DNA from: Escherichia phage REP2
Reading direction: 5' to 3' (one strand)
DNA: 64,000 bases
Sequence record: OQ174501.1
Positions within the stretch are counted from its first letter, which is position 1. Each line of letters starts with the position of its first letter. Shown here one piece after another: positions 42,979-50,762 of the stretch. Both the position numbers and the translations under genes were made by a program. The notes beneath the pieces were generated by a model that saw nothing but the letters and a program-made list of their open reading frames with translations, did no database searches and was not told the DNA's origin.

Positions 42979-43117
42979 ATAATATGAATTGGGTGTCGGA
43001 ATAATAAGTTAACCGAACAATTCTATGTGGTAGTCTACAACTGAGAGATCTGTCGAAAGAAGATGAAATTCAGAAGAACGTGACTACCGAGTTTTAATCT
43101 CTAACGAGAATTTTTAA

Positions 43118-43366
43118 ATGATTAAACAATTACAACACGCTCTTGAACTGCAACGAAACGCATGGAATAATGGTCACGAAAACTATGGCGCATCTATTGA
43201 TGTTGAAGCCGAAGCTCTTGAAATCCTGCGTTATTTCAAACATCTAAATCCTGCTCAAACTGCATTAGCTGCTGAGCTTCAGGAAAAAGATGAACTTAAG
43301 TATGCTAAGCCTCTGGCTTCTGCTGCACGAAAAGCAGTTCGTCACTTTGTGGTAACATTGAAGTAA
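43118..43366 (+). CDS. rIII: rIII lysis-inhibition accessory protein
   Basis: 82 codons as in T4 RIII; position after gene 31. Confidence 0.8.
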   Translation: MIKQLQHALELQRNAWNNGHENYGASIDVEAEALEILRYFKHLNPAQTALAAELQEKDELKYAKPLASAARKAVRHFVVTLK

Positions 43367-43612
43367 TTTATTGGAGATTCACTGCCTTAGTGTGAGCTAA
43401 AATCGAGGAGCCATCGAACTGTCTGATTAATGATTTGCGAATCATTATAGTTTTAAGACCCCGGCAGTTTTATGGTGTACCTCTTGAATGTGAATGATGA
43501 CGGGTTTATGGTTATCCTGGTCGTTAAATACCCAAAAAACCTATGTTCCCCTTGAGGGCTTGCGCAGGCAATGCCAATAAGTCCTGCATTTTCATTTAAA
43601 AGAGAATTTATA

Positions 43613-43789
43613 ATGGCAAAACAAGCTAAAGCAAAGAAAGCAGTTGAAAAGAAAGTTGGTGATTCTAAACGCGCTGGCTACAAGCGTGGGTCGAACTCTC
43701 GTATCAATCAAACTGTTGAGAAGATCATGCGCCGAGCACGTGCGGTTCTTCGAGATGATGCTTCTCGTTTTGGTAAGCAGAAAGCATAA
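43613..43789 (+). CDS. Small highly basic protein (58 aa from MAKQAKAKKAVEKKVG...)
   Basis: Lys/Arg-rich ORF; start chosen at the internal ATG of the listed 43571 ORF; strong terminator follows. Start uncertain. Confidence 0.4.
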   Translation: MAKQAKAKKAVEKKVGDSKRAGYKRGSNSRINQTVEKIMRRARAVLRDDASRFGKQKA

Positions 43790-43794
43790 GTTGA

Positions 43795-43823
43795 GGACTC
43801 CTTCGGGAGTCCTTTTTTATTTT
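43795..43823 (+). terminator. Rho-independent terminator (GGACTCC-TTCG-GGAGTCC then TTTTTTATTTT)
   Basis: Perfect 7-bp stem with UUCG loop followed by a T-run. Confidence 0.85.
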
Positions 43824-43842
43824 CCAAAGACTGCATAAAGTT

Positions 43843-43872
43843 GTTTACAGTATGGTTCCTTTGTGATAGTAT
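43843..43872 (+). promoter_or_regulatory. T4-type early promoter
   Basis: GTTTAC at 43843-43848, 18-nt spacer, TGaTAGTAT. Confidence 0.55.
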
Positions 43873-43899
43873 TATCTTACACAAACAAAGGAGAATAAA

Positions 43900-44232
43900 A
43901 TGAAAACGATTAATCTGAACGCTGCAGTTAAAACTAAATGCTTCAATGGTAAATATGATGAAACTATGTGGTTCTTAATGGCAGTTGAAGGTGATATTAT
44001 TGAAGTAGAAACAACAGAAGGTATGGGAACAGATTTCACCTTTACAATTCAAGTTCATAATTTCTTTACTGGTTGGATTTATGAATTGAATACAGTAATC
44101 GTTGGAAAAATTGAACAAAATGAATTAGGTGAATGGTATTATGTTACAGCTCGCCAACGTGCCGAACGCTTAATTGAGAAGATGAAAAAAGTTGGTAAAC
44201 TTGATATGCAGCATTGGAAAGTAGTAAAATAA
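43900..44232 (+). CDS. Hypothetical protein (110 aa)
   Basis: ORF with RBS AAGGAGAA. Confidence 0.5.
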   Translation: MKTINLNAAVKTKCFNGKYDETMWFLMAVEGDIIEVETTEGMGTDFTFTIQVHNFFTGWIYELNTVIVGKIEQNELGEWYYVTARQRAERLIEKMKKVGKLDMQHWKVVK

Positions 44233-44234
44233 TT

Positions 44235-44263
44235 GTTTACTTTGGTACAGGATATGATATTAT
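44235..44263 (+). promoter_or_regulatory. T4-type early promoter with palindrome GGTACAGG/CCTGTACC flanking the -10
   Basis: GTTTAC at 44235-44240, TATTAT at 44258-44263; 8-bp inverted repeat at 44244-44251 and 44267-44274. Confidence 0.5.
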
Positions 44264-44287
44264 ATACCTGTACCGCAATTAAACATC

Positions 44288-44665
44288 TTGGAGAATAAAA
44301 TGAACTACATCAACTTTGAACGTAAATATGTTTCTAATGGTATTGCAGGTTCTATTGATACTATTTGCCTTTGGAAACATCAAAATGGATCAGTATGCGA
44401 AATTGAACAGTATATGACTCCTAACTACGTTTATATGCGATTTGAAAACGGTATCACGGTTTCAATCACAATGGAAGGTTCCAACTTCAAAATCGCTCTG
44501 GATGATGATTTTCGTCAACGCGATTTAGGGACCCATCCTTGCTGGAATGGCGCTAATCGTAAGCTTCTGGTTAAAACTTGGATTCGTCATATTTTGAGTA
44601 ACAGAGCTAAACCTGAGCATCTTGAAGCAATCTTTGATGTAGTTCTTAACGAATTTGATATTTAA
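44288..44665 (+). CDS. Hypothetical protein (125 aa)
   Basis: ORF with RBS GGAGAA. Confidence 0.5.
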   Translation: MENKMNYINFERKYVSNGIAGSIDTICLWKHQNGSVCEIEQYMTPNYVYMRFENGITVSITMEGSNFKIALDDDFRQRDLGTHPCWNGANRKLLVKTWIRHILSNRAKPEHLEAIFDVVLNEFDI

Positions 44666-44674
44666 AATAAAACA

Positions 44675-44688
44675 GGGGCTTCGGCCCC
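44675..44688 (+). other. UUCG-tetraloop hairpin GGGGC-TTCG-GCCCC
   Basis: Perfect 5-bp GC stem between adjacent ORFs; no U-tract. Confidence 0.45.
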
Positions 44689-44705
44689 TTACTGAGGAAA
44701 ATACT

Positions 44706-44993
44706 ATGTTTATGACTACTTATTTTGATACCCGCAAAAATTTCTGTGAAGTTGTTTTCTCTAAGGCGCCTAAAGACCTTCCTGCTCATTTGCAACCTAC
44801 CAGTGAATCGATTAAAAATTATGTTGATGTGGTTTGTCCTTTAGAGTTTCGCACTGTAAATGGGCGTGATACTTTGTCTATCATTAAACTTAATGGCGAA
44901 ATTGACATTGATCCCTCAATTGCGCGTGAAATTAATATTTCTGATATTGGCGGCGGTAATGTTAAATCACATGGGTTTCAGATGAGGTTCTAA
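44706..44993 (+). CDS. Hypothetical protein (95 aa)
   Basis: ATG at 44706 after GAGGAAAA; the listed start at 44655 is a TTG spanning the hairpin. Confidence 0.45.
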   Translation: MFMTTYFDTRKNFCEVVFSKAPKDLPAHLQPTSESIKNYVDVVCPLEFRTVNGRDTLSIIKLNGEIDIDPSIAREINISDIGGGNVKSHGFQMRF

Positions 44994-45190
44994 TGAAATT
45001 CTTTTTAGGTCAAACCGTTGAATTAAAGGGAGTTGGTATACCTGGATTAATTTCTAAGGTTTTACCCGCATTTAAATTGGGAGATGTTCAAGTAAAAGAG
45101 GCTTATATTGTTTCTTGGGTAGATGGAAATGAAGACCTTCATATGGGCGATGAATTATCTCCTATCTATGGATTAAAGGAATTAATATGA
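44993..45190 (+). CDS. Hypothetical protein (65 aa)
   Basis: ORF with ATGA-type overlap. Confidence 0.4.
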   Translation: MKFFLGQTVELKGVGIPGLISKVLPAFKLGDVQVKEAYIVSWVDGNEDLHMGDELSPIYGLKELI

Positions 45191-45393
45191 ATATAATTAA
45201 TAAGATTTTTGGAATTCAGTACATTAAGGTCACATATAAAGTAACAGATAAAAATCCGTATACTGATGAACACGAAGAACCACAAGTTGAGTCTATTATA
45301 TTAGAAAAGGACCCTAACTGGCCAGTTGAATTTCGTCTTCCTTGCTATGGTCATTGGGCTGATGTTGAAATTATAAGCATTGAAAATGTCTGA
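45187..45393 (+). CDS. Hypothetical protein (68 aa)
   Basis: ORF with ATGA overlap. Confidence 0.4.
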   Translation: MNIINKIFGIQYIKVTYKVTDKNPYTDEHEEPQVESIILEKDPNWPVEFRLPCYGHWADVEIISIENV

Positions 45394-45844
45394 GTTAGAG
45401 ATTAGAAGTAATTTTAGATGGCCATCATGTGCATTAAGTAATTTCGCTCAATGGCCTTTCGTTATGGATGGTATTCAATTTGGAGGTCTCGAAGGATTCC
45501 TCCAAGGATGCAAGGTGAAAAATGTTGAACAACAACGTCGTATATTTGGGTTATCTGGGCTTGCCGCCCAACAAGCTGGAAGGTCTTATGCTAGAGCTCA
45601 GGACCGTGGGACCCTCTTCTGGCTTGGAGTTCCGTTTTCAAGATACTCCCCGGCGTGGAAAGAATTATACACAAATGCATATTTTGAAGCAGCGATCCAA
45701 AACAAGGGCTTTCGTGATGCATTACAAGCCTCGAAAGGAAAAGTTTTGAAGCACAGCATGGCTAGTGGTCTAACAAAAGATGATACAATACTAACCGAAG
45801 CTGAATTTATTAATGTGTTAAACCTATTAAGAGATTCTCTATGA
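45380..45844 (+). CDS. NADAR/YbiA-family protein (predicted ADP-ribose-processing hydrolase)
   Basis: N-terminal F-x-LSNF...F..DG..F...E signature and overall size match the NADAR (DUF1768) family as I recall it. Confidence 0.55.
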   Translation: MKMSELEIRSNFRWPSCALSNFAQWPFVMDGIQFGGLEGFLQGCKVKNVEQQRRIFGLSGLAAQQAGRSYARAQDRGTLFWLGVPFSRYSPAWKELYTNAYFEAAIQNKGFRDALQASKGKVLKHSMASGLTKDDTILTEAEFINVLNLLRDSL

Positions 45845-46704
45845 AGCCTACTATTTTAACTGATATTGATGGAGTATGTTTAAGCTGGCAATCAGGTCTT
45901 CCTTATTTTGCCCAGAAATATAATCTTCCGTTAGAACATATTTTAAAAATGATCCAGGATGAGAAATTTATTTCTCCTGGTAAACTATTTAATTGCGATG
46001 AAGAACTTGGCGTTAAGCTAATTGAAAAATACAATCGTTCGGATTTTATTCGATACTTGTCTCCATATAAAGATGCCCTGTGTGTAATTAACAAATTAAA
46101 AGAAGATTATAATTTTGTAGCTGTTACAGCATTGGGTGATTCTATTGACGCTCTGTTGAATCGTCAATTTAATTTGAATGCTCTTTTTCCTGGTGCCTTC
46201 TCAGAAGTAATGATGTGTGGTCATGATTCTTCAAAAGAAGAGTTGTTCAAAAAGGCAAAAGAGAAATATAACGTAATTTGTTATATTGACGATCTCGCTC
46301 ACCACTGCGACCACGCGAGTGAAATATTAAATGTTCCGGTTTATTGGATGGCTCGAGGAGAGCGTGACAATATTCCAAAAACTGCTCAGCGAGTTTATAC
46401 ATGGAATGATATAGAAAATAAGCTTTTTTCACCGAAGGAAAATAAAGAAAGTTTTGATAGTGAAAAAGCTATAAAAGATGTAATTGAGAAGATGGTTAAA
46501 AACGATTCTTTTCGTTGGAACACTACCTGGAGAACTCCTGGATTTAATCCGTATAATCCATATTATACACATCCATATAATCCATATTATACACACCCGT
46601 ATCATATGAATCCATTCCATACGTGGAGTTATACTAAGCCTGGTGATGCAGGGTATTTTAATAGATTTACTAGTGGTGATAATATTTTCCAAGGAGCATT
46701 CTAA
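45841..46704 (+). CDS. HAD-superfamily hydrolase-like protein with Pro/Tyr-rich repeat tail
   Basis: Motif I DIDGV at the N-terminus and a D-D pair (YIDDLAHH) typical of HAD phosphatases/nucleotidases; ATGA overlap with the NADAR gene; C-terminal NPYNPYYTHPY repeats. Confidence 0.5.
   Translation: MKPTILTDIDGVCLSWQSGLPYFAQKYNLPLEHILKMIQDEKFISPGKLFNCDEELGVKLIEKYNRSDFIRYLSPYKDALCVINKLKEDYNFVAVTALGDSIDALLNRQFNLNALFPGAFSEVMMCGHDSSKEELFKKAKEKYNVICYIDDLAHHCDHASEILNVPVYWMARGERDNIPKTAQRVYTWNDIENKLFSPKENKESFDSEKAIKDVIEKMVKNDSFRWNTTWRTPGFNPYNPYYTHPYNPYYTHPYHMNPFHTWSYTKPGDAGYFNRFTSGDNIFQGAF
46553..46600 (+). repeat. Tandem 24-nt direct repeat (2 units) inside the HAD-like gene
   Basis: ATAATCCATATTATACACATCCAT (46553-46576) repeated as ATAATCCATATTATACACACCCGT (46577-46600); encodes the duplicated NPYYTHPY. 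Confidence 0.6.
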
Positions 46705-46973
46705 TGTTTGTCGTTCACACTATTTATGAAAATGAAGGTAATACTACACGTGATTACGGTCACGTAAATCAATTTTTTAGATGCAATCCAGAATTCCGAG
46801 CTCAAAAAGACGAACGAATTTTTAAAAAATGTGTAGAGCAAGGTTTCATTTATATCAAGCACTGGATGCAAGGAAATAAAGTTAGAACTACATATCATAA
46901 GTCTTTACCTGAGCTTAATGATGAATTGATTTATAATAGAGCTGTAAACCAAACCTTGAAGGATGAGCAATGA
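46704..46973 (+). CDS. Hypothetical protein (89 aa)
   Basis: ORF with overlapping start; immediately upstream of the ligase. Confidence 0.45.
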   Translation: MFVVHTIYENEGNTTRDYGHVNQFFRCNPEFRAQKDERIFKKCVEQGFIYIKHWMQGNKVRTTYHKSLPELNDELIYNRAVNQTLKDEQ

Positions 46974-48430
46974 TTCTTAAAATTCTGAATGAAATAGCAT
47001 CTATTGGATCAACTAAGCAGAAGCAAGCAATTCTTGAAAAGAATAAAGATAATGAATTGCTTAAACGGGTATATCGTCTGACTTATTCTCGTGGGTTACA
47101 GTATTATATCAAGAAATGGCCTAAACCTGGTATTGCTACCCAGAGTTTTGGAATGCTGACTATTACCGATATGCTTGACTTCATTGAATTCACGTTAGCT
47201 ACTCGGAAATTGACCGGAAATGCTGCAATTGAGGAATTGACTGGATATATCACCGATGGTAAAAAGGATGATGTTGAAGTTTTGCGTCGAGTGATGATGC
47301 GAGACCTTGAATGCGGTGCTTCAGTATCTATTGCAAACAAAGTTTGGCCAGGTTTAATTCCTGAACAACCTCAAATGCTGGCAAGTTCTTATGATGAAAA
47401 AGGCATTAATAAGAATATCAAATTTCCAGCCTTTGCCCAGTTAAAAGCTGATGGAGCTCGGTGTTTTGCTGAAGTCCGAGGTGATGAATTAGATGATGTT
47501 CGTCTTTTATCACGAGCTGGTAATGAATATCTAGGATTAGATCTTCTTAAGGAAGAGTTAATCAAAATGACCGCTGAAGCCCGCCAGATTCATCCAGAAG
47601 GCGTGTTAATTGATGGCGAATTGGTATATCATGAGCAAGTTGAAAAAGAGCCAGAAGGTCTAGATTTTCTTTTTGATGCTCCTGAAATCAGTAAAGCTAA
47701 AGAGTTTGCCGAAGTAGCTGAATCTCGTACTGCATCTAATGGCATCGCCAATAAATCTTTAAAGGGAACCATTTCTGAAAAAGAAGCTCAATGCATGAAG
47801 TTTCAGGTCTGGGATTATGTCCCGTTGGTAGAAATATACGGTCTTCCTGCATTTCGTTTGAAATATGATGTACGTTTTTCTAAACTAGAACAAATGACAT
47901 CAGGTTATGATAAAGTAATTTTAATTGAAAACCAGGTAGTAAATAACCTAGATGAAGCTAAGGTAATTTATAAAAAGTATATTGATCAAGGTCTTGAAGG
48001 TATTATTCTCAAAAATACCGATGGATTATGGGAAAATGCTCGTTCAAAAAATCTTTATAAATTTAAAGAAGTAATTGATGTTGATTTAAAAATTGTAGGA
48101 ATTTATCCTCACCGTAAAGACCCTACTAAAGCAGGTGGTTTCATTCTTGAATCAGAGTGTGGAAAAATTAAAGTAAATGCTGGTTCAGGCTTAAAAGATA
48201 AAGCCGGTATAAAATCGCATGAACTTGATCGTACTCGCATTATGGAAAACCAAAATTATTATATTGGAAAAATTCTAGAGTGCGAATGCAACGGCTGGGT
48301 AAAATTAGATGGACGTACTGATTACGTTAAGCTATTTCTTCCAATTGCAATTCGTTTACGTGAAGATAAAACTAAAGCTAATACGTTCGAAGATGTATTT
48401 GGCGATTTTCATGAGGTAACTGGTTTATGA
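46970..48430 (+). CDS. 30: ATP-dependent DNA ligase
   Basis: 486 codons; translation MILKILNEIASIGSTKQKQAILEKNKDNELLKRVYRLTYSRGLQYYIKKWPKPG... matches T4 DNA ligase as recalled, including the KADG adenylation motif. Confidence 0.95.
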   Translation: MILKILNEIASIGSTKQKQAILEKNKDNELLKRVYRLTYSRGLQYYIKKWPKPGIATQSFGMLTITDMLDFIEFTLATRKLTGNAAIEELTGYITDGKKDDVEVLRRVMMRDLECGASVSIANKVWPGLIPEQPQMLASSYDEKGINKNIKFPAFAQLKADGARCFAEVRGDELDDVRLLSRAGNEYLGLDLLKEELIKMTAEARQIHPEGVLIDGELVYHEQVEKEPEGLDFLFDAPEISKAKEFAEVAESRTASNGIANKSLKGTISEKEAQCMKFQVWDYVPLVEIYGLPAFRLKYDVRFSKLEQMTSGYDKVILIENQVVNNLDEAKVIYKKYIDQGLEGIILKNTDGLWENARSKNLYKFKEVIDVDLKIVGIYPHRKDPTKAGGFILESECGKIKVNAGSGLKDKAGIKSHELDRTRIMENQNYYIGKILECECNGWVKLDGRTDYVKLFLPIAIRLREDKTKANTFEDVFGDFHEVTGL

Positions 48431-48612
48431 AAGCTTACTTAGAAACAATTGTCGTGGCTCAAAAAGAAGGTGGAGATGTTTCCACTGCGGTATCGCAGGT
48501 TATTCTTGAATTCCCAGATAAACTAGCATATGATGAATTCACGGAAAGATTTGATCCATATGAAAAAGGTCCAAAGTTTGAAGTATATCGTACTCTTTTA
48601 GCTCTCTATTAA
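48427..48612 (+). CDS. Hypothetical protein (61 aa)
   Basis: ORF with ATGA overlap to the ligase; terminator follows. Confidence 0.45.
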   Translation: MKAYLETIVVAQKEGGDVSTAVSQVILEFPDKLAYDEFTERFDPYEKGPKFEVYRTLLALY

Positions 48613-48614
48613 TT

Positions 48615-48640
48615 AAAGGCCTTCGGGCCTTTAATTTTAT
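48615..48640 (+). terminator. Terminator-like hairpin AAAGGCC-TTCG-GGCCTTT plus AATTTTAT
   Basis: Perfect 7-bp stem with UUCG loop and a short T-rich tail. Confidence 0.6.
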
Positions 48641-48645
48641 AAATA
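48638..48645 (+). promoter_or_regulatory. Late promoter TATAAATA (alt)
   Basis: Exact TATAAATA about 24 nt upstream of the alt ATG. Confidence 0.65.
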
Positions 48646-48668
48646 GAATAAACACTAGAGAGGATAAC

Positions 48669-50762
48669 ATGGAACTTATTACAGAATTATTTGACGAAGA
48701 TACTACTCTTCCGATTACAAACTTAAATCCAAAGAAGAAAATACCACAAATTTTTTCAGTTCATGTTGATGATGCAATTGAACAACCAGGCTTTCGTTTA
48801 TGTACCTATACATCTGGAGGTGATACTAATCGTGATTTAAAGATGGGCGATAAAATGATGCACATTGTTCCTTTTACATTAACTGCTAAAGGTTCAATTG
48901 CTAAATTAAAAGGTCTTGGTCCAAGCCCGATTAATTATATCAATTCAGTTTTTACTGTTGCAATGCAAACAATGCGTCAATATAAAATTGATGCCTGTAT
49001 GCTTCGTATTCTTAAGTCTAAAACCGCCGGTCAAGCTCGACAAATTCAACTTATTGCTGATAGACTCATCCGCAGTCGTTCAGGTGGCAGATACGTCCTT
49101 CTTAAGGAACTCTGGGATTACGATAAAAAGTATGCATATATTCTTATACATCGTAAAAATGTATCACTAGAAGACATTCCAGGAGTTCCAGAAATTAGCA
49201 CCGAGCTTTTTACTAAAGTTGAATCGAAGGTCGGTGATGTTTATATCAATAAAGATACTGGAGCTCAAGTAACCAAAAATGAGGCAATTGCTGCATCTAT
49301 TGCACAAGAAAATGATAAACGTTCTGACCAAGCCGTAATCGTTAAAGTTAAAATTTCCCGTAGAGCAATTGCACAAAGTCAGTCATTGGAATCTTCTAGA
49401 TTTGAAAGTGAATTATTCCAGAAGTATGAATCTACAGCAGCTAATTTTAATAAACCAGCTACTGCACCTTTAATTCCCGAAGCAGAAGAAATGAAAATTG
49501 GAATTAATTCATTAGCTTCTAAAACAAAGGCAGCAAAAATTATTGCTGAAGGAACGGCAGATGAACTTCACTATGATTATAAATTCTTTCCAATGAGTCA
49601 AGTCGGTGAAGTTTCAGAAAAAATTAAAGAAGTAATTTTTAATGCAATTAAAAATGAACCAACTACTTCAATAAAATGTTTAGAGAAATACGCAGCAGCT
49701 GTAAATCAATTCTTTGAAGATTATAAAGATAAATGGCTTGCTAATCATAATAAAAATCGTAAAGGACAACCAGATGAAGTCTGGGAAGAAATAACTAAAA
49801 ATTCCTGGAACGCAGCAAAAACTAAATTCCTCAAACGAATGATTTACAGTTTTTCTGGAATTGGTGCTGGTCCAATGATTGATATTACTATTGCCCGCGA
49901 TGGTTCTAAATATACTCCATCACAAAAGCGTGGCATTAGAGAATATTGCGGTTCAGGATATACTGACATCAATAATCTTCTTTTAGGTCGTTACAATCCA
50001 GAACGATACGATGTAATGAGTGAAAAAGAAATTGAATCTGCTATAAATAACTTAGATTCAGCTTTTGAAAATGGTGACCGTATACCAGAAGGCATTACAG
50101 TTTATCGTGCTCAAAGTATGACTGCTCCTATATATGAAGCGTTAGTTAAAAATAAAGTGTTCTACTTCAGAAATTTTGTATCTACTTCTTTAACTCCTAT
50201 CATTTTTGGACGTTTTGGAATCACACATGCTGGTATTGGTCTTTTAGAACCAGAAGCTCGTAACGAATTAACAGTTGATAAAAATGAAGAAGGAATAACT
50301 ATTAATCCAAACGAAATAAGAGCGTATAAAGAAAATCCTGAATATGTTAAAGTTCAAATAGGATGGGCAATTGATGGAGCTCATAAAGTTAATGTTGTAT
50401 ATCCAGGAAGTCTCGGAATAGCAACAGAAGCTGAAGTTATTCTACCACGCGGATTGATGGTCAAGGTTAATAAAATAACTGATGCTTCTAATAATGACGG
50501 AACAACATCTAATAATACAAAACTCATTCAAGCTGAAGTTATGACCACGGAAGAGCTCACCGAATCGGTAATCTATGATGGAGACCATTTAATGGAAACT
50601 GGTGAATTGGTTGCAATGACAGGTGATATTGAAATAGAAGACAGAGTTGACTTTGCATCATTTGTTTCATCAAATATTAAACAGAAAGTAGAATCATCTC
50701 TTGGAATTATTGCGTCTTGCATAGATATTACAAACATGCCTTACAAGTTCGTTCAAGGATAA
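48669..50762 (+). CDS. alt: Alt-type ADP-ribosyltransferase (head-packaged, injected)
   Basis: 697 codons; N-terminus MELITELFDEDTTLPITNLNPKKKIPQIFSVHVDD... matches T4 Alt as recalled; R-S-E type motifs (VYRAQ, FVSTSL, EAEVILPRG). Confidence 0.85.
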   Translation: MELITELFDEDTTLPITNLNPKKKIPQIFSVHVDDAIEQPGFRLCTYTSGGDTNRDLKMGDKMMHIVPFTLTAKGSIAKLKGLGPSPINYINSVFTVAMQTMRQYKIDACMLRILKSKTAGQARQIQLIADRLIRSRSGGRYVLLKELWDYDKKYAYILIHRKNVSLEDIPGVPEISTELFTKVESKVGDVYINKDTGAQVTKNEAIAASIAQENDKRSDQAVIVKVKISRRAIAQSQSLESSRFESELFQKYESTAANFNKPATAPLIPEAEEMKIGINSLASKTKAAKIIAEGTADELHYDYKFFPMSQVGEVSEKIKEVIFNAIKNEPTTSIKCLEKYAAAVNQFFEDYKDKWLANHNKNRKGQPDEVWEEITKNSWNAAKTKFLKRMIYSFSGIGAGPMIDITIARDGSKYTPSQKRGIREYCGSGYTDINNLLLGRYNPERYDVMSEKEIESAINNLDSAFENGDRIPEGITVYRAQSMTAPIYEALVKNKVFYFRNFVSTSLTPIIFGRFGITHAGIGLLEPEARNELTVDKNEEGITINPNEIRAYKENPEYVKVQIGWAIDGAHKVNVVYPGSLGIATEAEVILPRGLMVKVNKITDASNNDGTTSNNTKLIQAEVMTTEELTESVIYDGDHLMETGELVAMTGDIEIEDRVDFASFVSSNIKQKVESSLGIIASCIDITNMPYKFVQG

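What the first reader, a model, noticed from the sequence alone, without database searches (positions are those of the whole stretch)
45380..46704. Translationally coupled NADAR-like and HAD-like gene pair upstream of DNA ligase: candidate anti-ADP-ribosylation or nucleotide-salvage module
ORF 45380-45844 carries the NADAR/YbiA N-terminal signature (F..LSNF...F..DG..F...E). Members of this family have been reported to hydrolyse ADP-ribose adducts, including ADP-ribosylated guanine in DNA. It is fused by an ATGA overlap to a 287-aa HAD-type hydrolase (DIDGV motif I). A phage-encoded pair like this could reverse or process host ADP-ribosylation of DNA or nucleotides (DarT-type defence), or act on NAD-derived metabolites. 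A T4 orthologue of the NADAR gene (30.3) may exist; I cannot confirm that from memory.
Basis: partly seen in the sequence, partly recalled or inferred. Interest (0 to 1): 0.55.

Follow-up and report, generated by a model that had tools for sequence, protein, structure and literature searches.

The report
Known anti-DarT NADAR gene plus HAD neighbour
The first gene is phage T4's adfN (gene 30.3), already shown to strip ADP-ribose from phage DNA and defeat the bacterial DarTG1 defence. Its downstream neighbour is a real but uncharacterised nucleotidase-like phosphatase that published transposon data show is not needed for that defence.

Summary
The window is a T4-type phage, 100% identical here to Escherichia phage REP3.

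**Gene 1, 45386-45844 (ATG start, not the TTG at 45380).** It is 150/152 identical to T4 gp30.3, now called AdfN. It matches Pfam PF08010 at E=5e-70. Its model matches only the three solved NADAR structures. It keeps E36, K43, H123 and the C-terminal helix. AdfN is a published DNA ADP-ribosylglycohydrolase that T4 needs to grow on DarTG1 hosts.

**Gene 2, 45841-46704 (gp30.2).** It overlaps gene 1 by ATGA. It is a true HAD-fold enzyme with a C1 cap:
- The four HAD motifs are conserved (D8/D10 and K132 invariant; T96 and D150-D151 in at least 90% of homologues).
- 42 of its 88 distant relatives match Pfam NT5C, the 5'(3')-deoxyribonucleotidase family.
- Its function is untested.

**The "pair as a module" idea is not supported.**
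- In the published T4 transposon screen on DarTG1, gene 30.3 drops 150-fold and 30.2 is unaffected.
- The two genes abut in only about a quarter of gp30.2 loci.
- 77% of AdfN-family loci have no gp30.2 nearby.
- gp30.2's constant neighbour is DNA ligase.
- ATGA-type overlaps join seven consecutive genes here, so the overlap is not specific to this pair.

Verdict: ordinary and already explained, with a small residual open question.

The parts
45386..45844 (+). adfN (gene 30.3): 152-aa NADAR-family DNA ADP-ribosylglycohydrolase. Catalytic E36 is at 45491-45493, K43 at 45512-45514 and the phage-type H123 at 45752-45754. The C-terminal helix (aa 138-151) is intact.
   Evidence: 150/152 identical to T4 gp30.3. 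PF08010 E=4.9e-70. AF2 model pLDDT 91. Its only significant PDB matches are YbiA 2b3w, Phytophthora NADAR 8bau and Geobacter NADAR 8bat. E36 and H123 are invariant and K43 is in >=90% of 42 homologues. Function from PMC11825919.
45841..46704 (+). Gene 30.2: 287-aa HAD-superfamily phosphatase with a C1 cap (aa 1-~200), plus a disordered Pro/Tyr/Trp-rich tail (aa ~200-287). Motif I D8/D10 is at 45862-45870, motif II T96 at 46126-46128, motif III K132 at 46234-46236 and motif IV D150-D151 at 46288-46293.
46547..46602 (+). 24-nt tandem repeat (2.3 copies) inside the gp30.2 tail. It adds 10 residues (YTHPYNPY...) relative to T4.
   Evidence: TRF score 98, 90% matches. The 10-aa insertion shows in the alignment with T4 gp30.2.
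45187..45393 (+). Gene 30.4 homologue (68 aa, unknown function). It lies upstream of adfN and overlaps it by 8 nt (ATGTCTGA).
   Evidence: phrog_2042 E=4e-35; T4 synteny. It is the only other significant gene in the T4 DarTG1 transposon screen: log2FC -1.79, adjusted p 0.014.
45522..45749 (+). 30.3' internal out-of-frame ORF (75 aa) within adfN, annotated in T4.
   Evidence: 72/75 identical to T4 30.3'; T4 annotation. No evidence here that it is expressed.
46704..46973 (+). Gene 30.1 (DUF3045), between gp30.2 and ligase.
   Evidence: PF11243 E=2.3e-63.
46970..48430 (+). Gene 30, ATP-dependent DNA ligase. It is the conserved downstream neighbour of gp30.2.
   Evidence: T4 synteny. A ligase lies downstream on the same strand in 70 of 76 gp30.2 loci.

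Best explanation
The locus holds two separate enzymes. They sit side by side in a tightly packed string of T4 genes that are dispensable on E. coli K-12.

(1) AdfN (gp30.3) is a NADAR-fold glycohydrolase. When the host DarT1 toxin ADP-ribosylates guanines in replicating phage DNA, AdfN cleaves the ADP-ribose-guanine bond, using E36, K43 and the phage-specific H123. This restores a replicable template, so the phage escapes DarTG1 abortive defence. This is shown experimentally for the T4 protein, which differs at 2 of 152 residues. For this window it is inferred by identity.

(2) gp30.2 is a Mg2+-dependent HAD phosphomonoesterase. D8 would be the nucleophile, D10 the general acid/base, T96 and K132 would bind phosphate, and D150-D151 would bind the metal. 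Its closed C1 helical cap implies a small-molecule substrate rather than a macromolecule. Its sequence relatives point to a (deoxy)nucleoside monophosphate. The fold, the motifs and the family link are shown here. The substrate and the biological role are inferred. The most likely role is accessory trimming of the nucleotide pool, as with other phage dNMP phosphatases.

gp30.2 is not required for AdfN's anti-DarTG1 function.
For: AdfN identity:
- 99% to T4 gp30.3; PF08010.
- The model matches only the three NADAR structures. The family profile hits YbiA 2b3w at E=0.0029.
- E36, K43 and H123 are conserved.

AdfN function in T4 (PMC11825919):
- Deleting it abolishes plaquing on DarTG1, and expression in trans rescues RB69.
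- E36A and K43A impair rescue.
- Purified protein removes ADP-ribose from DNA.
- Independent in vitro activity on guanine-ADPr is reported in PMC11125620.
- The transposon screen gives log2FC -7.25.

gp30.2:
- The motif residues are conserved, and the model is confident over residues 1-200.
- All top Foldseek PDB hits are HAD. The 5'(3')-deoxyribonucleotidases 2jao, 2i7d, 4yih and 1q92 align at rmsd 4.4-4.8 A.
- The family profile hits mouse cdN 2jao at E=0.025. There W16 aligns with the Phe eight residues after the nucleophile.
- The family has 1472 representative clusters. 42 of 88 distant members match Pfam NT5C, best E=4.2e-10.
- A phage precedent exists: the PBS1 dTMP phosphatase is an mdN-like enzyme (PMC12697855).

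Independence of the two genes:
- 30.2 is unaffected on DarTG1 (-0.12, p 0.61).
- AdfN abuts gp30.2 in 20 of 74 gp30.2 loci. It lies upstream with intervening ORFs in 16 and is absent within 5 kb in 38.
- Only 18 of 79 AdfN-family loci have a gp30.2-type ORF within 3 kb.
- In Karamvirus CkP1, AdfN sits in the tRNA cluster, 70 genes away from gp30.2.
Against: - gp30.2 shows no fitness phenotype in any T4 transposon condition I could read: K-12 in LB, M9, DarTG1 and the clinical isolate CFE299. A nucleotide-pool role has no phenotypic support either.
- The 30.3-30.2 abutment recurs in some distant lineages, such as Acinetobacter-type loci L049-L052 and L065. The arrangement is therefore old, and weak functional coupling cannot be excluded.
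- A transposon screen cannot exclude a redundant or conditional helper role.
- The role of the aromatic residue at nucleophile+8 in base stacking is recalled from the dNT structural literature. It was not checked here.
Confidence: 0.85

Rival explanations
1. AdfN and gp30.2 cooperate against ADP-ribosylation. gp30.2 might dispose of the released ADP-ribose or its phosphorylated breakdown products. Or it might be the unidentified T-even factor that AdfN needs for full activity.
For: - The ATGA overlap and same-strand abutment occur in 20 of 74 gp30.2 loci, including some distant lineages.
- Both families have near-identical host distributions among phage records: 1439 and 1510 records.
- Johannesman et al. 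report that AdfN works fully only in T-even infection, and propose an unknown phage factor.
Against: - Insertions in 30.2 have no cost on a DarTG1 host (log2FC -0.12, p 0.61, 71 sites). Insertions in 30.3 are lost (-7.25).
- 77% of AdfN-family loci lack a gp30.2 neighbour. In 38 of 74 gp30.2 loci there is no AdfN within 5 kb.
- Overlaps join all seven neighbouring genes.
- The shared distribution is explained by both genes being quasi-core genes of Straboviridae.
Confidence: 0.08
2. gp30.2 is a DNA-end-healing 3'-phosphatase that prepares nicks for the neighbouring DNA ligase, like the HAD phosphatase domain of polynucleotide kinase.
For: - Ligase is the most constant neighbour: it lies downstream on the same strand in 70 of 76 loci, and abuts or overlaps gp30.2 in several.
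- There is a weak hit to the PHROG polynucleotide kinase family (phrog_415, E=0.0014).
- One distant relative touches Pfam HAD_PNKP.
Against: - gp30.2 has a full helical C1 cap (helices between residues 16 and 86). By established HAD classification this encloses small substrates, whereas phosphatases acting on nucleic-acid ends are capless.
- NT5C is matched by 42 relatives against 1 for HAD_PNKP.
- T4 already has PseT for this job (T4 gene tables).
- Gene order is broadly conserved in T4-like genomes, so adjacency to a core gene is weak evidence.
Confidence: 0.07

Closest known systems
T4 AdfN (gp30.3), anti-DarT factor NADAR (Johannesman et al., Nat Commun 2025, PMC11825919)
   Same: Essentially the same protein: 150/152 identical, with the same length, catalytic residues and gene neighbours 30.4 and 30.2.
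   Different: Two conservative substitutions (M125I, N144D relative to T4). Activity has not been measured for this allele.
DarG1 antitoxin / NADAR superfamily (Geobacter lovleyi 8bat, Phytophthora 8bau, E. coli YbiA 2b3w)
   Same: Same fold. The signature LSNF...DG...E...K is conserved. Guanine-ADP-ribose hydrolysis is shared, according to the papers.
   Different: The phage clade has His (H123) where YbiA has Glu and DarG1-type NADARs have Asp (PMC11125620; H123 invariant). It lacks the DarG1 N-terminal extension. It is an orphan gene, not paired with a toxin. It does not protect uninfected E. coli from DarT1. It does not reach Pfam PF08719 directly.
5'(3')-deoxyribonucleotidases NT5C/NT5M (Pfam PF06941; PDB 2jao, 2i7d, 1q92)
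   Same: HAD core plus a four-helix C1 cap; a DxDG(V/I) motif I; an aromatic residue eight positions after the nucleophile. It is the best sequence-level PDB hit, and 42 of 88 distant relatives fall in PF06941.
   Different: Only 16-19% identity. The window protein is below the Pfam threshold. It carries an extra disordered tail of about 85 aa. Substrate is unknown.
Bacillus phage PBS1 Dtm, dTMP phosphatase (PMC12697855)
   Same: A phage-encoded, mdN-like enzyme, recognised only through structure prediction, that dephosphorylates a dNMP.
   Different: PBS1 uses it to remove dTMP so that dU-DNA is made. No such pathway requirement is known for T4-type phages, and gp30.2 is dispensable in every condition read.

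Membership tests
Phage gp30.3 / AdfN clade of the NADAR superfamily | Sequence membership in Pfam PF08010 (Phage_30_3) | tested here: met
   E=4.9e-70, 234 bits against a cut-off of 36, full-length match 1-138/138.
Phage gp30.3 / AdfN clade of the NADAR superfamily | NADAR (YbiA-like) fold | tested here: met
   AF2 model pLDDT 91. The only Foldseek PDB hits with probability >=0.95 are YbiA 2b3w (TM 0.67), NADAR 8bau and NADAR 8bat.
Phage gp30.3 / AdfN clade of the NADAR superfamily | Catalytic Glu and Lys (T4 E36, K43) and the clade-specific His in the last strand | tested here: met
   E36, K43 and H123 are present. E36 and H123 are invariant and K43 is in >=90% of 42 homologues. Their roles come from PMC11825919 and PMC11125620.
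Phage gp30.3 / AdfN clade of the NADAR superfamily | Intact C-terminal helix (lost in the inactive RB69 allele) | tested here: met
   Full 152 aa; helix 138-151 in the model.
Phage gp30.3 / AdfN clade of the NADAR superfamily | Hydrolysis of ADP-ribose from guanine in DNA, and protection from DarTG1 | not testable with these tools
   Shown for the 99%-identical T4 protein.
   No PF08719 hit at E<=1. One family member (P0325) carries both PF08010 and PF08719. The families are linked, but this protein does not reach the model.
HAD (haloacid dehalogenase-like) phosphatase superfamily | Four catalytic motifs: DxD, S/T, K, (D/E)D | tested here: met
   In 38 homologues D8, D10 and K132 are invariant, and T96, D150 and D151 are in >=90%. 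D8, D10 and K132 are still invariant across 89 sequences at 22-31% identity.
HAD (haloacid dehalogenase-like) phosphatase superfamily | Rossmann-like core with cap insertion (C1 type) | tested here: met
HAD (haloacid dehalogenase-like) phosphatase superfamily | Direct Pfam or NCBIfam HAD profile hit | tested here: not met
   No family at E<=1 in Pfam or NCBIfam. Relatives hit PF00702 and PF13419.
NT5C 5'(3')-deoxyribonucleotidase family (PF06941) | Profile membership | tested here: inconclusive
   The window protein gives no hit. 42 of 88 distant relatives hit it, best E=4.2e-10. The family profile against 2jao gives E=0.025.
NT5C 5'(3')-deoxyribonucleotidase family (PF06941) | dNMP phosphatase activity | not testable with these tools
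   No assay exists for any gp30.2 homologue in the searchable literature.
   Published T4 transposon data, read here: 30.3 -7.25 (adjusted p 0); 30.2 -0.12 (p 0.61).
   The genes abut in 20 of 74 gp30.2 loci. gp30.2 lies within 3 kb in 18 of 79 AdfN loci.

The most novel reading that the evidence does not exclude
One of AdfN's immediate neighbours may be the 'as-yet unknown T4 factor' that lets AdfN work only in T-even infections. The better candidate is the upstream 68-aa gene 30.4, not gp30.2. It is the only other gene significantly depleted on DarTG1 in the T4 transposon screen, and 30.4-like ORFs flank AdfN only in T-even-type loci.

Separately, gp30.2 could be a nucleotidase aimed at a defence-related nucleotide that no screen has yet included.
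Probability: 0.12. Interest if true: 0.6.

Novelty: already known. Interest (0 to 1): 0.2.

Why it matters
[quoted passage not shown] That is established work from 2024-2025, so this window adds only another allele.

Two things remain open:
- What the widespread gp30.2 phosphatase family does. It has about 1,500 sequence clusters and no assay or phenotype.
- Which T-even protein potentiates AdfN.

The case also carries a practical lesson. Both proteins escape the standard Pfam NADAR and HAD models, so profile searches alone would have missed two correct calls.

Tried and rejected
- **Direct Pfam, NCBIfam and PADLOC searches of gp30.2, and NADAR-model, NCBIfam and PADLOC searches of AdfN.** No hits apart from PF08010.
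- **Single-sequence search of gp30.2 against PDB sequences.** Only noise.
- **Plasmid collection search for gp30.2.** Nothing.
- **Literature searches for gp30.2.** No functional study found.
- **gp30.2 as AdfN's missing cofactor.** Rejected on the transposon data.
- **Whether gene 30.4 travels with AdfN where AdfN has moved.** In Karamvirus CkP1 the equally sized upstream ORF shows no similarity. An iterative search found 30.4-like ORFs in only 13 of the 80 AdfN-family loci fetched, all T-even-type. So there is no comparative support beyond T-evens, and a polar effect remains the simpler reading.
- **Gene neighbours of the most distant gp30.2-like loci (L074, L076).** They gave only a clamp-loader-like AAA ATPase and PhoH, which is uninformative.
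- **Profile-profile comparison of A1 with A2.** Not independent, because A2 contains the window sequence.
- **Promoter and terminator scan of 43000-48700.** Counts were near shuffle expectation, and nothing separated 30.3 from 30.2.

Full report
**What the window is.** The 1.8-kb stretch 45187-46973 is 100% identical to Escherichia phage REP3 and 96-98% identical to many Tequatrovirus genomes. Gene order matches T4: cd, 31, rIII, 30.9 to 30.1, 30 (ligase), alt.1, alt. The two ORFs in the finding are therefore T4 genes 30.3 and 30.2.

**Checking the observation.**
- Both ORFs are present.
- ORF 1 should start at the ATG at 45386 (152 aa), as in the T4 annotation, not at the TTG at 45380.
The protein matches Pfam PF08010 (Phage_30_3) at E=4.9e-70.
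- The ATGA overlap at 45841-45844 is real. An AAGAG Shine-Dalgarno-like element lies 7 nt upstream of the 30.2 start (read).
- The overlap is not distinctive. Genes 30.5, 30.4, 30.3, 30.2, 30.1, 30 and alt.1 (44993-48612) all overlap their neighbours by 1-8 nt (coordinates).
- Neither protein hits the Pfam NADAR (PF08719) or HAD models at E<=1. NCBIfam and PADLOC also give nothing.

**ORF 1 is AdfN.**
- It is 150/152 identical to T4 gp30.3.
- A profile of 42 homologues hits E. coli YbiA (2b3w) at E=0.0029 over the LSNF...DG...E...K region.
- An AlphaFold2 model (pLDDT 91) matches three PDB entries with probability >=0.95, and nothing else: YbiA, the Phytophthora NADAR bound to ADP-ribose (8bau), and the Geobacter lovleyi NADAR (8bat).
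- E36 and H123 are invariant, and K43 is conserved in at least 90% of homologues.

The literature settles the function.
- Johannesman et al. (Nat Commun 2025, PMC11825919) renamed gp30.3 AdfN.
- Deleting it makes T4 and T2 unable to plate on DarTG1.
- Expression in trans rescues RB69, whose own allele is frameshifted and lacks the last helix.
- E36A and K43A impair rescue.
- Purified protein removes ADP-ribose from DarT1-modified DNA.
- An independent study found guanine-specific de-ADP-ribosylation in vitro. It noted the clade-specific His that replaces the Glu or Asp of other NADARs (PMC11125620).
- A T4 transposon screen confirms the phenotype: log2FC -7.25 on DarTG1 (bioRxiv 10.1101/2025.11.20.689424).

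The window allele is full length, with the C-terminal helix at residues 138-151.

**ORF 2 is a HAD phosphatase, most like deoxyribonucleotidases.**
- It is 90% identical to T4 gp30.2. The differences are concentrated in the C-terminal tail, where a 24-nt tandem repeat (46547-46602) adds 10 residues.
- Across 38 homologues the HAD motifs are conserved. D8, D10 and K132 are invariant. T96, D150 and D151 are conserved in at least 90%.
- D8, D10, R108 and K132 remain invariant across 89 sequences at 22-31% identity.
- The AlphaFold2 model is confident (pLDDT >90) for residues 1-200. It shows a Rossmann-like core with a helical cap inserted between motifs I and II. Residues 225-287 are disordered.
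- All top Foldseek PDB hits are HAD enzymes, and the cytosolic and mitochondrial 5'(3')-deoxyribonucleotidases align with the lowest rmsd, 4.4-4.8 A.
- At the sequence level the family profile's only near-significant PDB hit is mouse cdN (2jao, E=0.025). There invariant W16 aligns with the Phe eight residues after the nucleophile. From memory, that Phe stacks on the base in dNT structures.
- An exhaustive profile search finds 1472 representative clusters. Of 88 distant members, 42 match Pfam NT5C (best E=4.2e-10), 19 match PF00702 and 17 match PF13419.
- Some database records already label homologues as HAD hydrolase or 5'(3')-deoxyribonucleotidase.
- A full C1 cap implies a small-molecule substrate, by established HAD classification.
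- A phage precedent exists in the PBS1 dTMP phosphatase, an mdN-like enzyme (PMC12697855).

**Do the two genes work together? The evidence says no.**
- On DarTG1, the T4 transposon screen lists exactly two significant genes: 30.3 (-7.25) and 30.4 (-1.79, adjusted p 0.014). Gene 30.2 is unaffected (-0.12, p 0.61, 71 sites).
- adfN alone complements.
- Of 74 IMG/VR loci with a gp30.2 homologue and enough upstream flank, AdfN abuts it in 20. It lies upstream behind intervening ORFs in 16, and is absent within 5 kb in 38.
- Of 79 loci with an AdfN-family ORF, only 18 have a gp30.2-type ORF within 3 kb.
- In Karamvirus CkP1, AdfN sits among tRNA genes (CkP1_0147), while gp30.2 is CkP1_0217.
- In Slopekvirus P52_1, three small ORFs separate the two genes.
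- By contrast, DNA ligase lies downstream of gp30.2 on the same strand in 70 of 76 loci.
- The near-identical host distribution of the two families (1439 and 1510 phage records) reflects both being quasi-core genes of Straboviridae.

**What gp30.2 does remains open.** It is non-essential on K-12, with all 72 sites hit. It shows no effect in M9 against LB (-0.10, p 0.61). It shows none on the sheet I take to be the clinical isolate CFE299 (-0.21, p 0.32). I found no functional study. My best reading is an accessory (deoxy)nucleoside monophosphate phosphatase. I hold that at about 0.5 for the substrate class and about 0.9 for HAD phosphatase chemistry. A ligase-linked DNA 3'-phosphatase is less likely.

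**Residual lead.** Johannesman et al. state that AdfN needs an unknown T-even factor for full activity.
- gp30.2 is not that factor, by the transposon data.
- Gene 30.4, immediately upstream and overlapping adfN by 8 nt, is the only other hit in that screen.
- 30.4-like ORFs flank AdfN only in T-even-type loci, 13 of the 80 AdfN-family loci fetched.
- A polar effect of insertions on adfN translation is the simpler explanation.
- The equally sized upstream ORF in CkP1 is unrelated.
- I rate the cofactor idea low, but it is testable.

**Verdict.** The main biology is already published, so interest is low.

Noticed in passing
window 45187-45393 (gene 30.4): In the published T4 transposon screen on DarTG1, gene 30.4 is the only significant gene besides adfN (log2FC -1.79, adjusted p 0.014). 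The paper's main text does not discuss it. It overlaps adfN by 8 nt, so a polar effect is likely. But 30.4-like ORFs flank AdfN only in T-even-type loci, which matches AdfN's unexplained dependence on T-even infection.
   Followed up: partly
window 46441-46701 (gp30.2 C-terminal tail): The tail is about 85 aa, disordered and rich in Pro, Tyr and Trp. A 24-nt tandem repeat (46547-46602) adds 10 aa relative to T4. Many enterobacterial homologues end in a conserved motif, G(I/V)GTGIEYLNRQPT plus 6-10 residues. T4 has IEYLYNRPT, and the window copy is degenerate (AGYFNRFT). More distant homologues (Acinetobacter, Aeromonas and Vibrio phages) lack the tail. It may be a docking peptide.
   Followed up: partly
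window 45522-45749: The out-of-frame internal ORF 30.3' annotated in T4 is preserved (72/75 identical). The identity follows from the near-identical DNA, so it says nothing about expression.
   Followed up: no
proteins P0246-P0249, P0255, P0259; locus L013: Many natural AdfN homologues in related phages are truncated (86-126 aa, or missing the first 38 residues). This suggests recurrent loss of the gene, as in RB69.
   Followed up: no
window 48669-50762 (alt): The phage's own ADP-ribosyltransferase Alt lies 3 kb downstream of the ADP-ribose-removing AdfN. It is mosaic relative to T4. Roughly the first 250 and last 100 residues are near-identical, but the middle, including the transferase region, is only about half identical (71% overall).
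   Followed up: no
window 44993-48612: Seven consecutive genes (30.5 to alt.1) overlap by 1-8 nt with no intergenic space. Translational coupling is the rule across this block, not a feature of one pair.
   Followed up: yes
proteins P0151 (591 aa) and P0211 (660 aa): In these two proteins a gp30.2-like HAD domain sits at the C-terminus of a much longer protein. The N-terminal 380-500 residues match no Pfam family. Such fusions might hint at the substrate.
   Followed up: no
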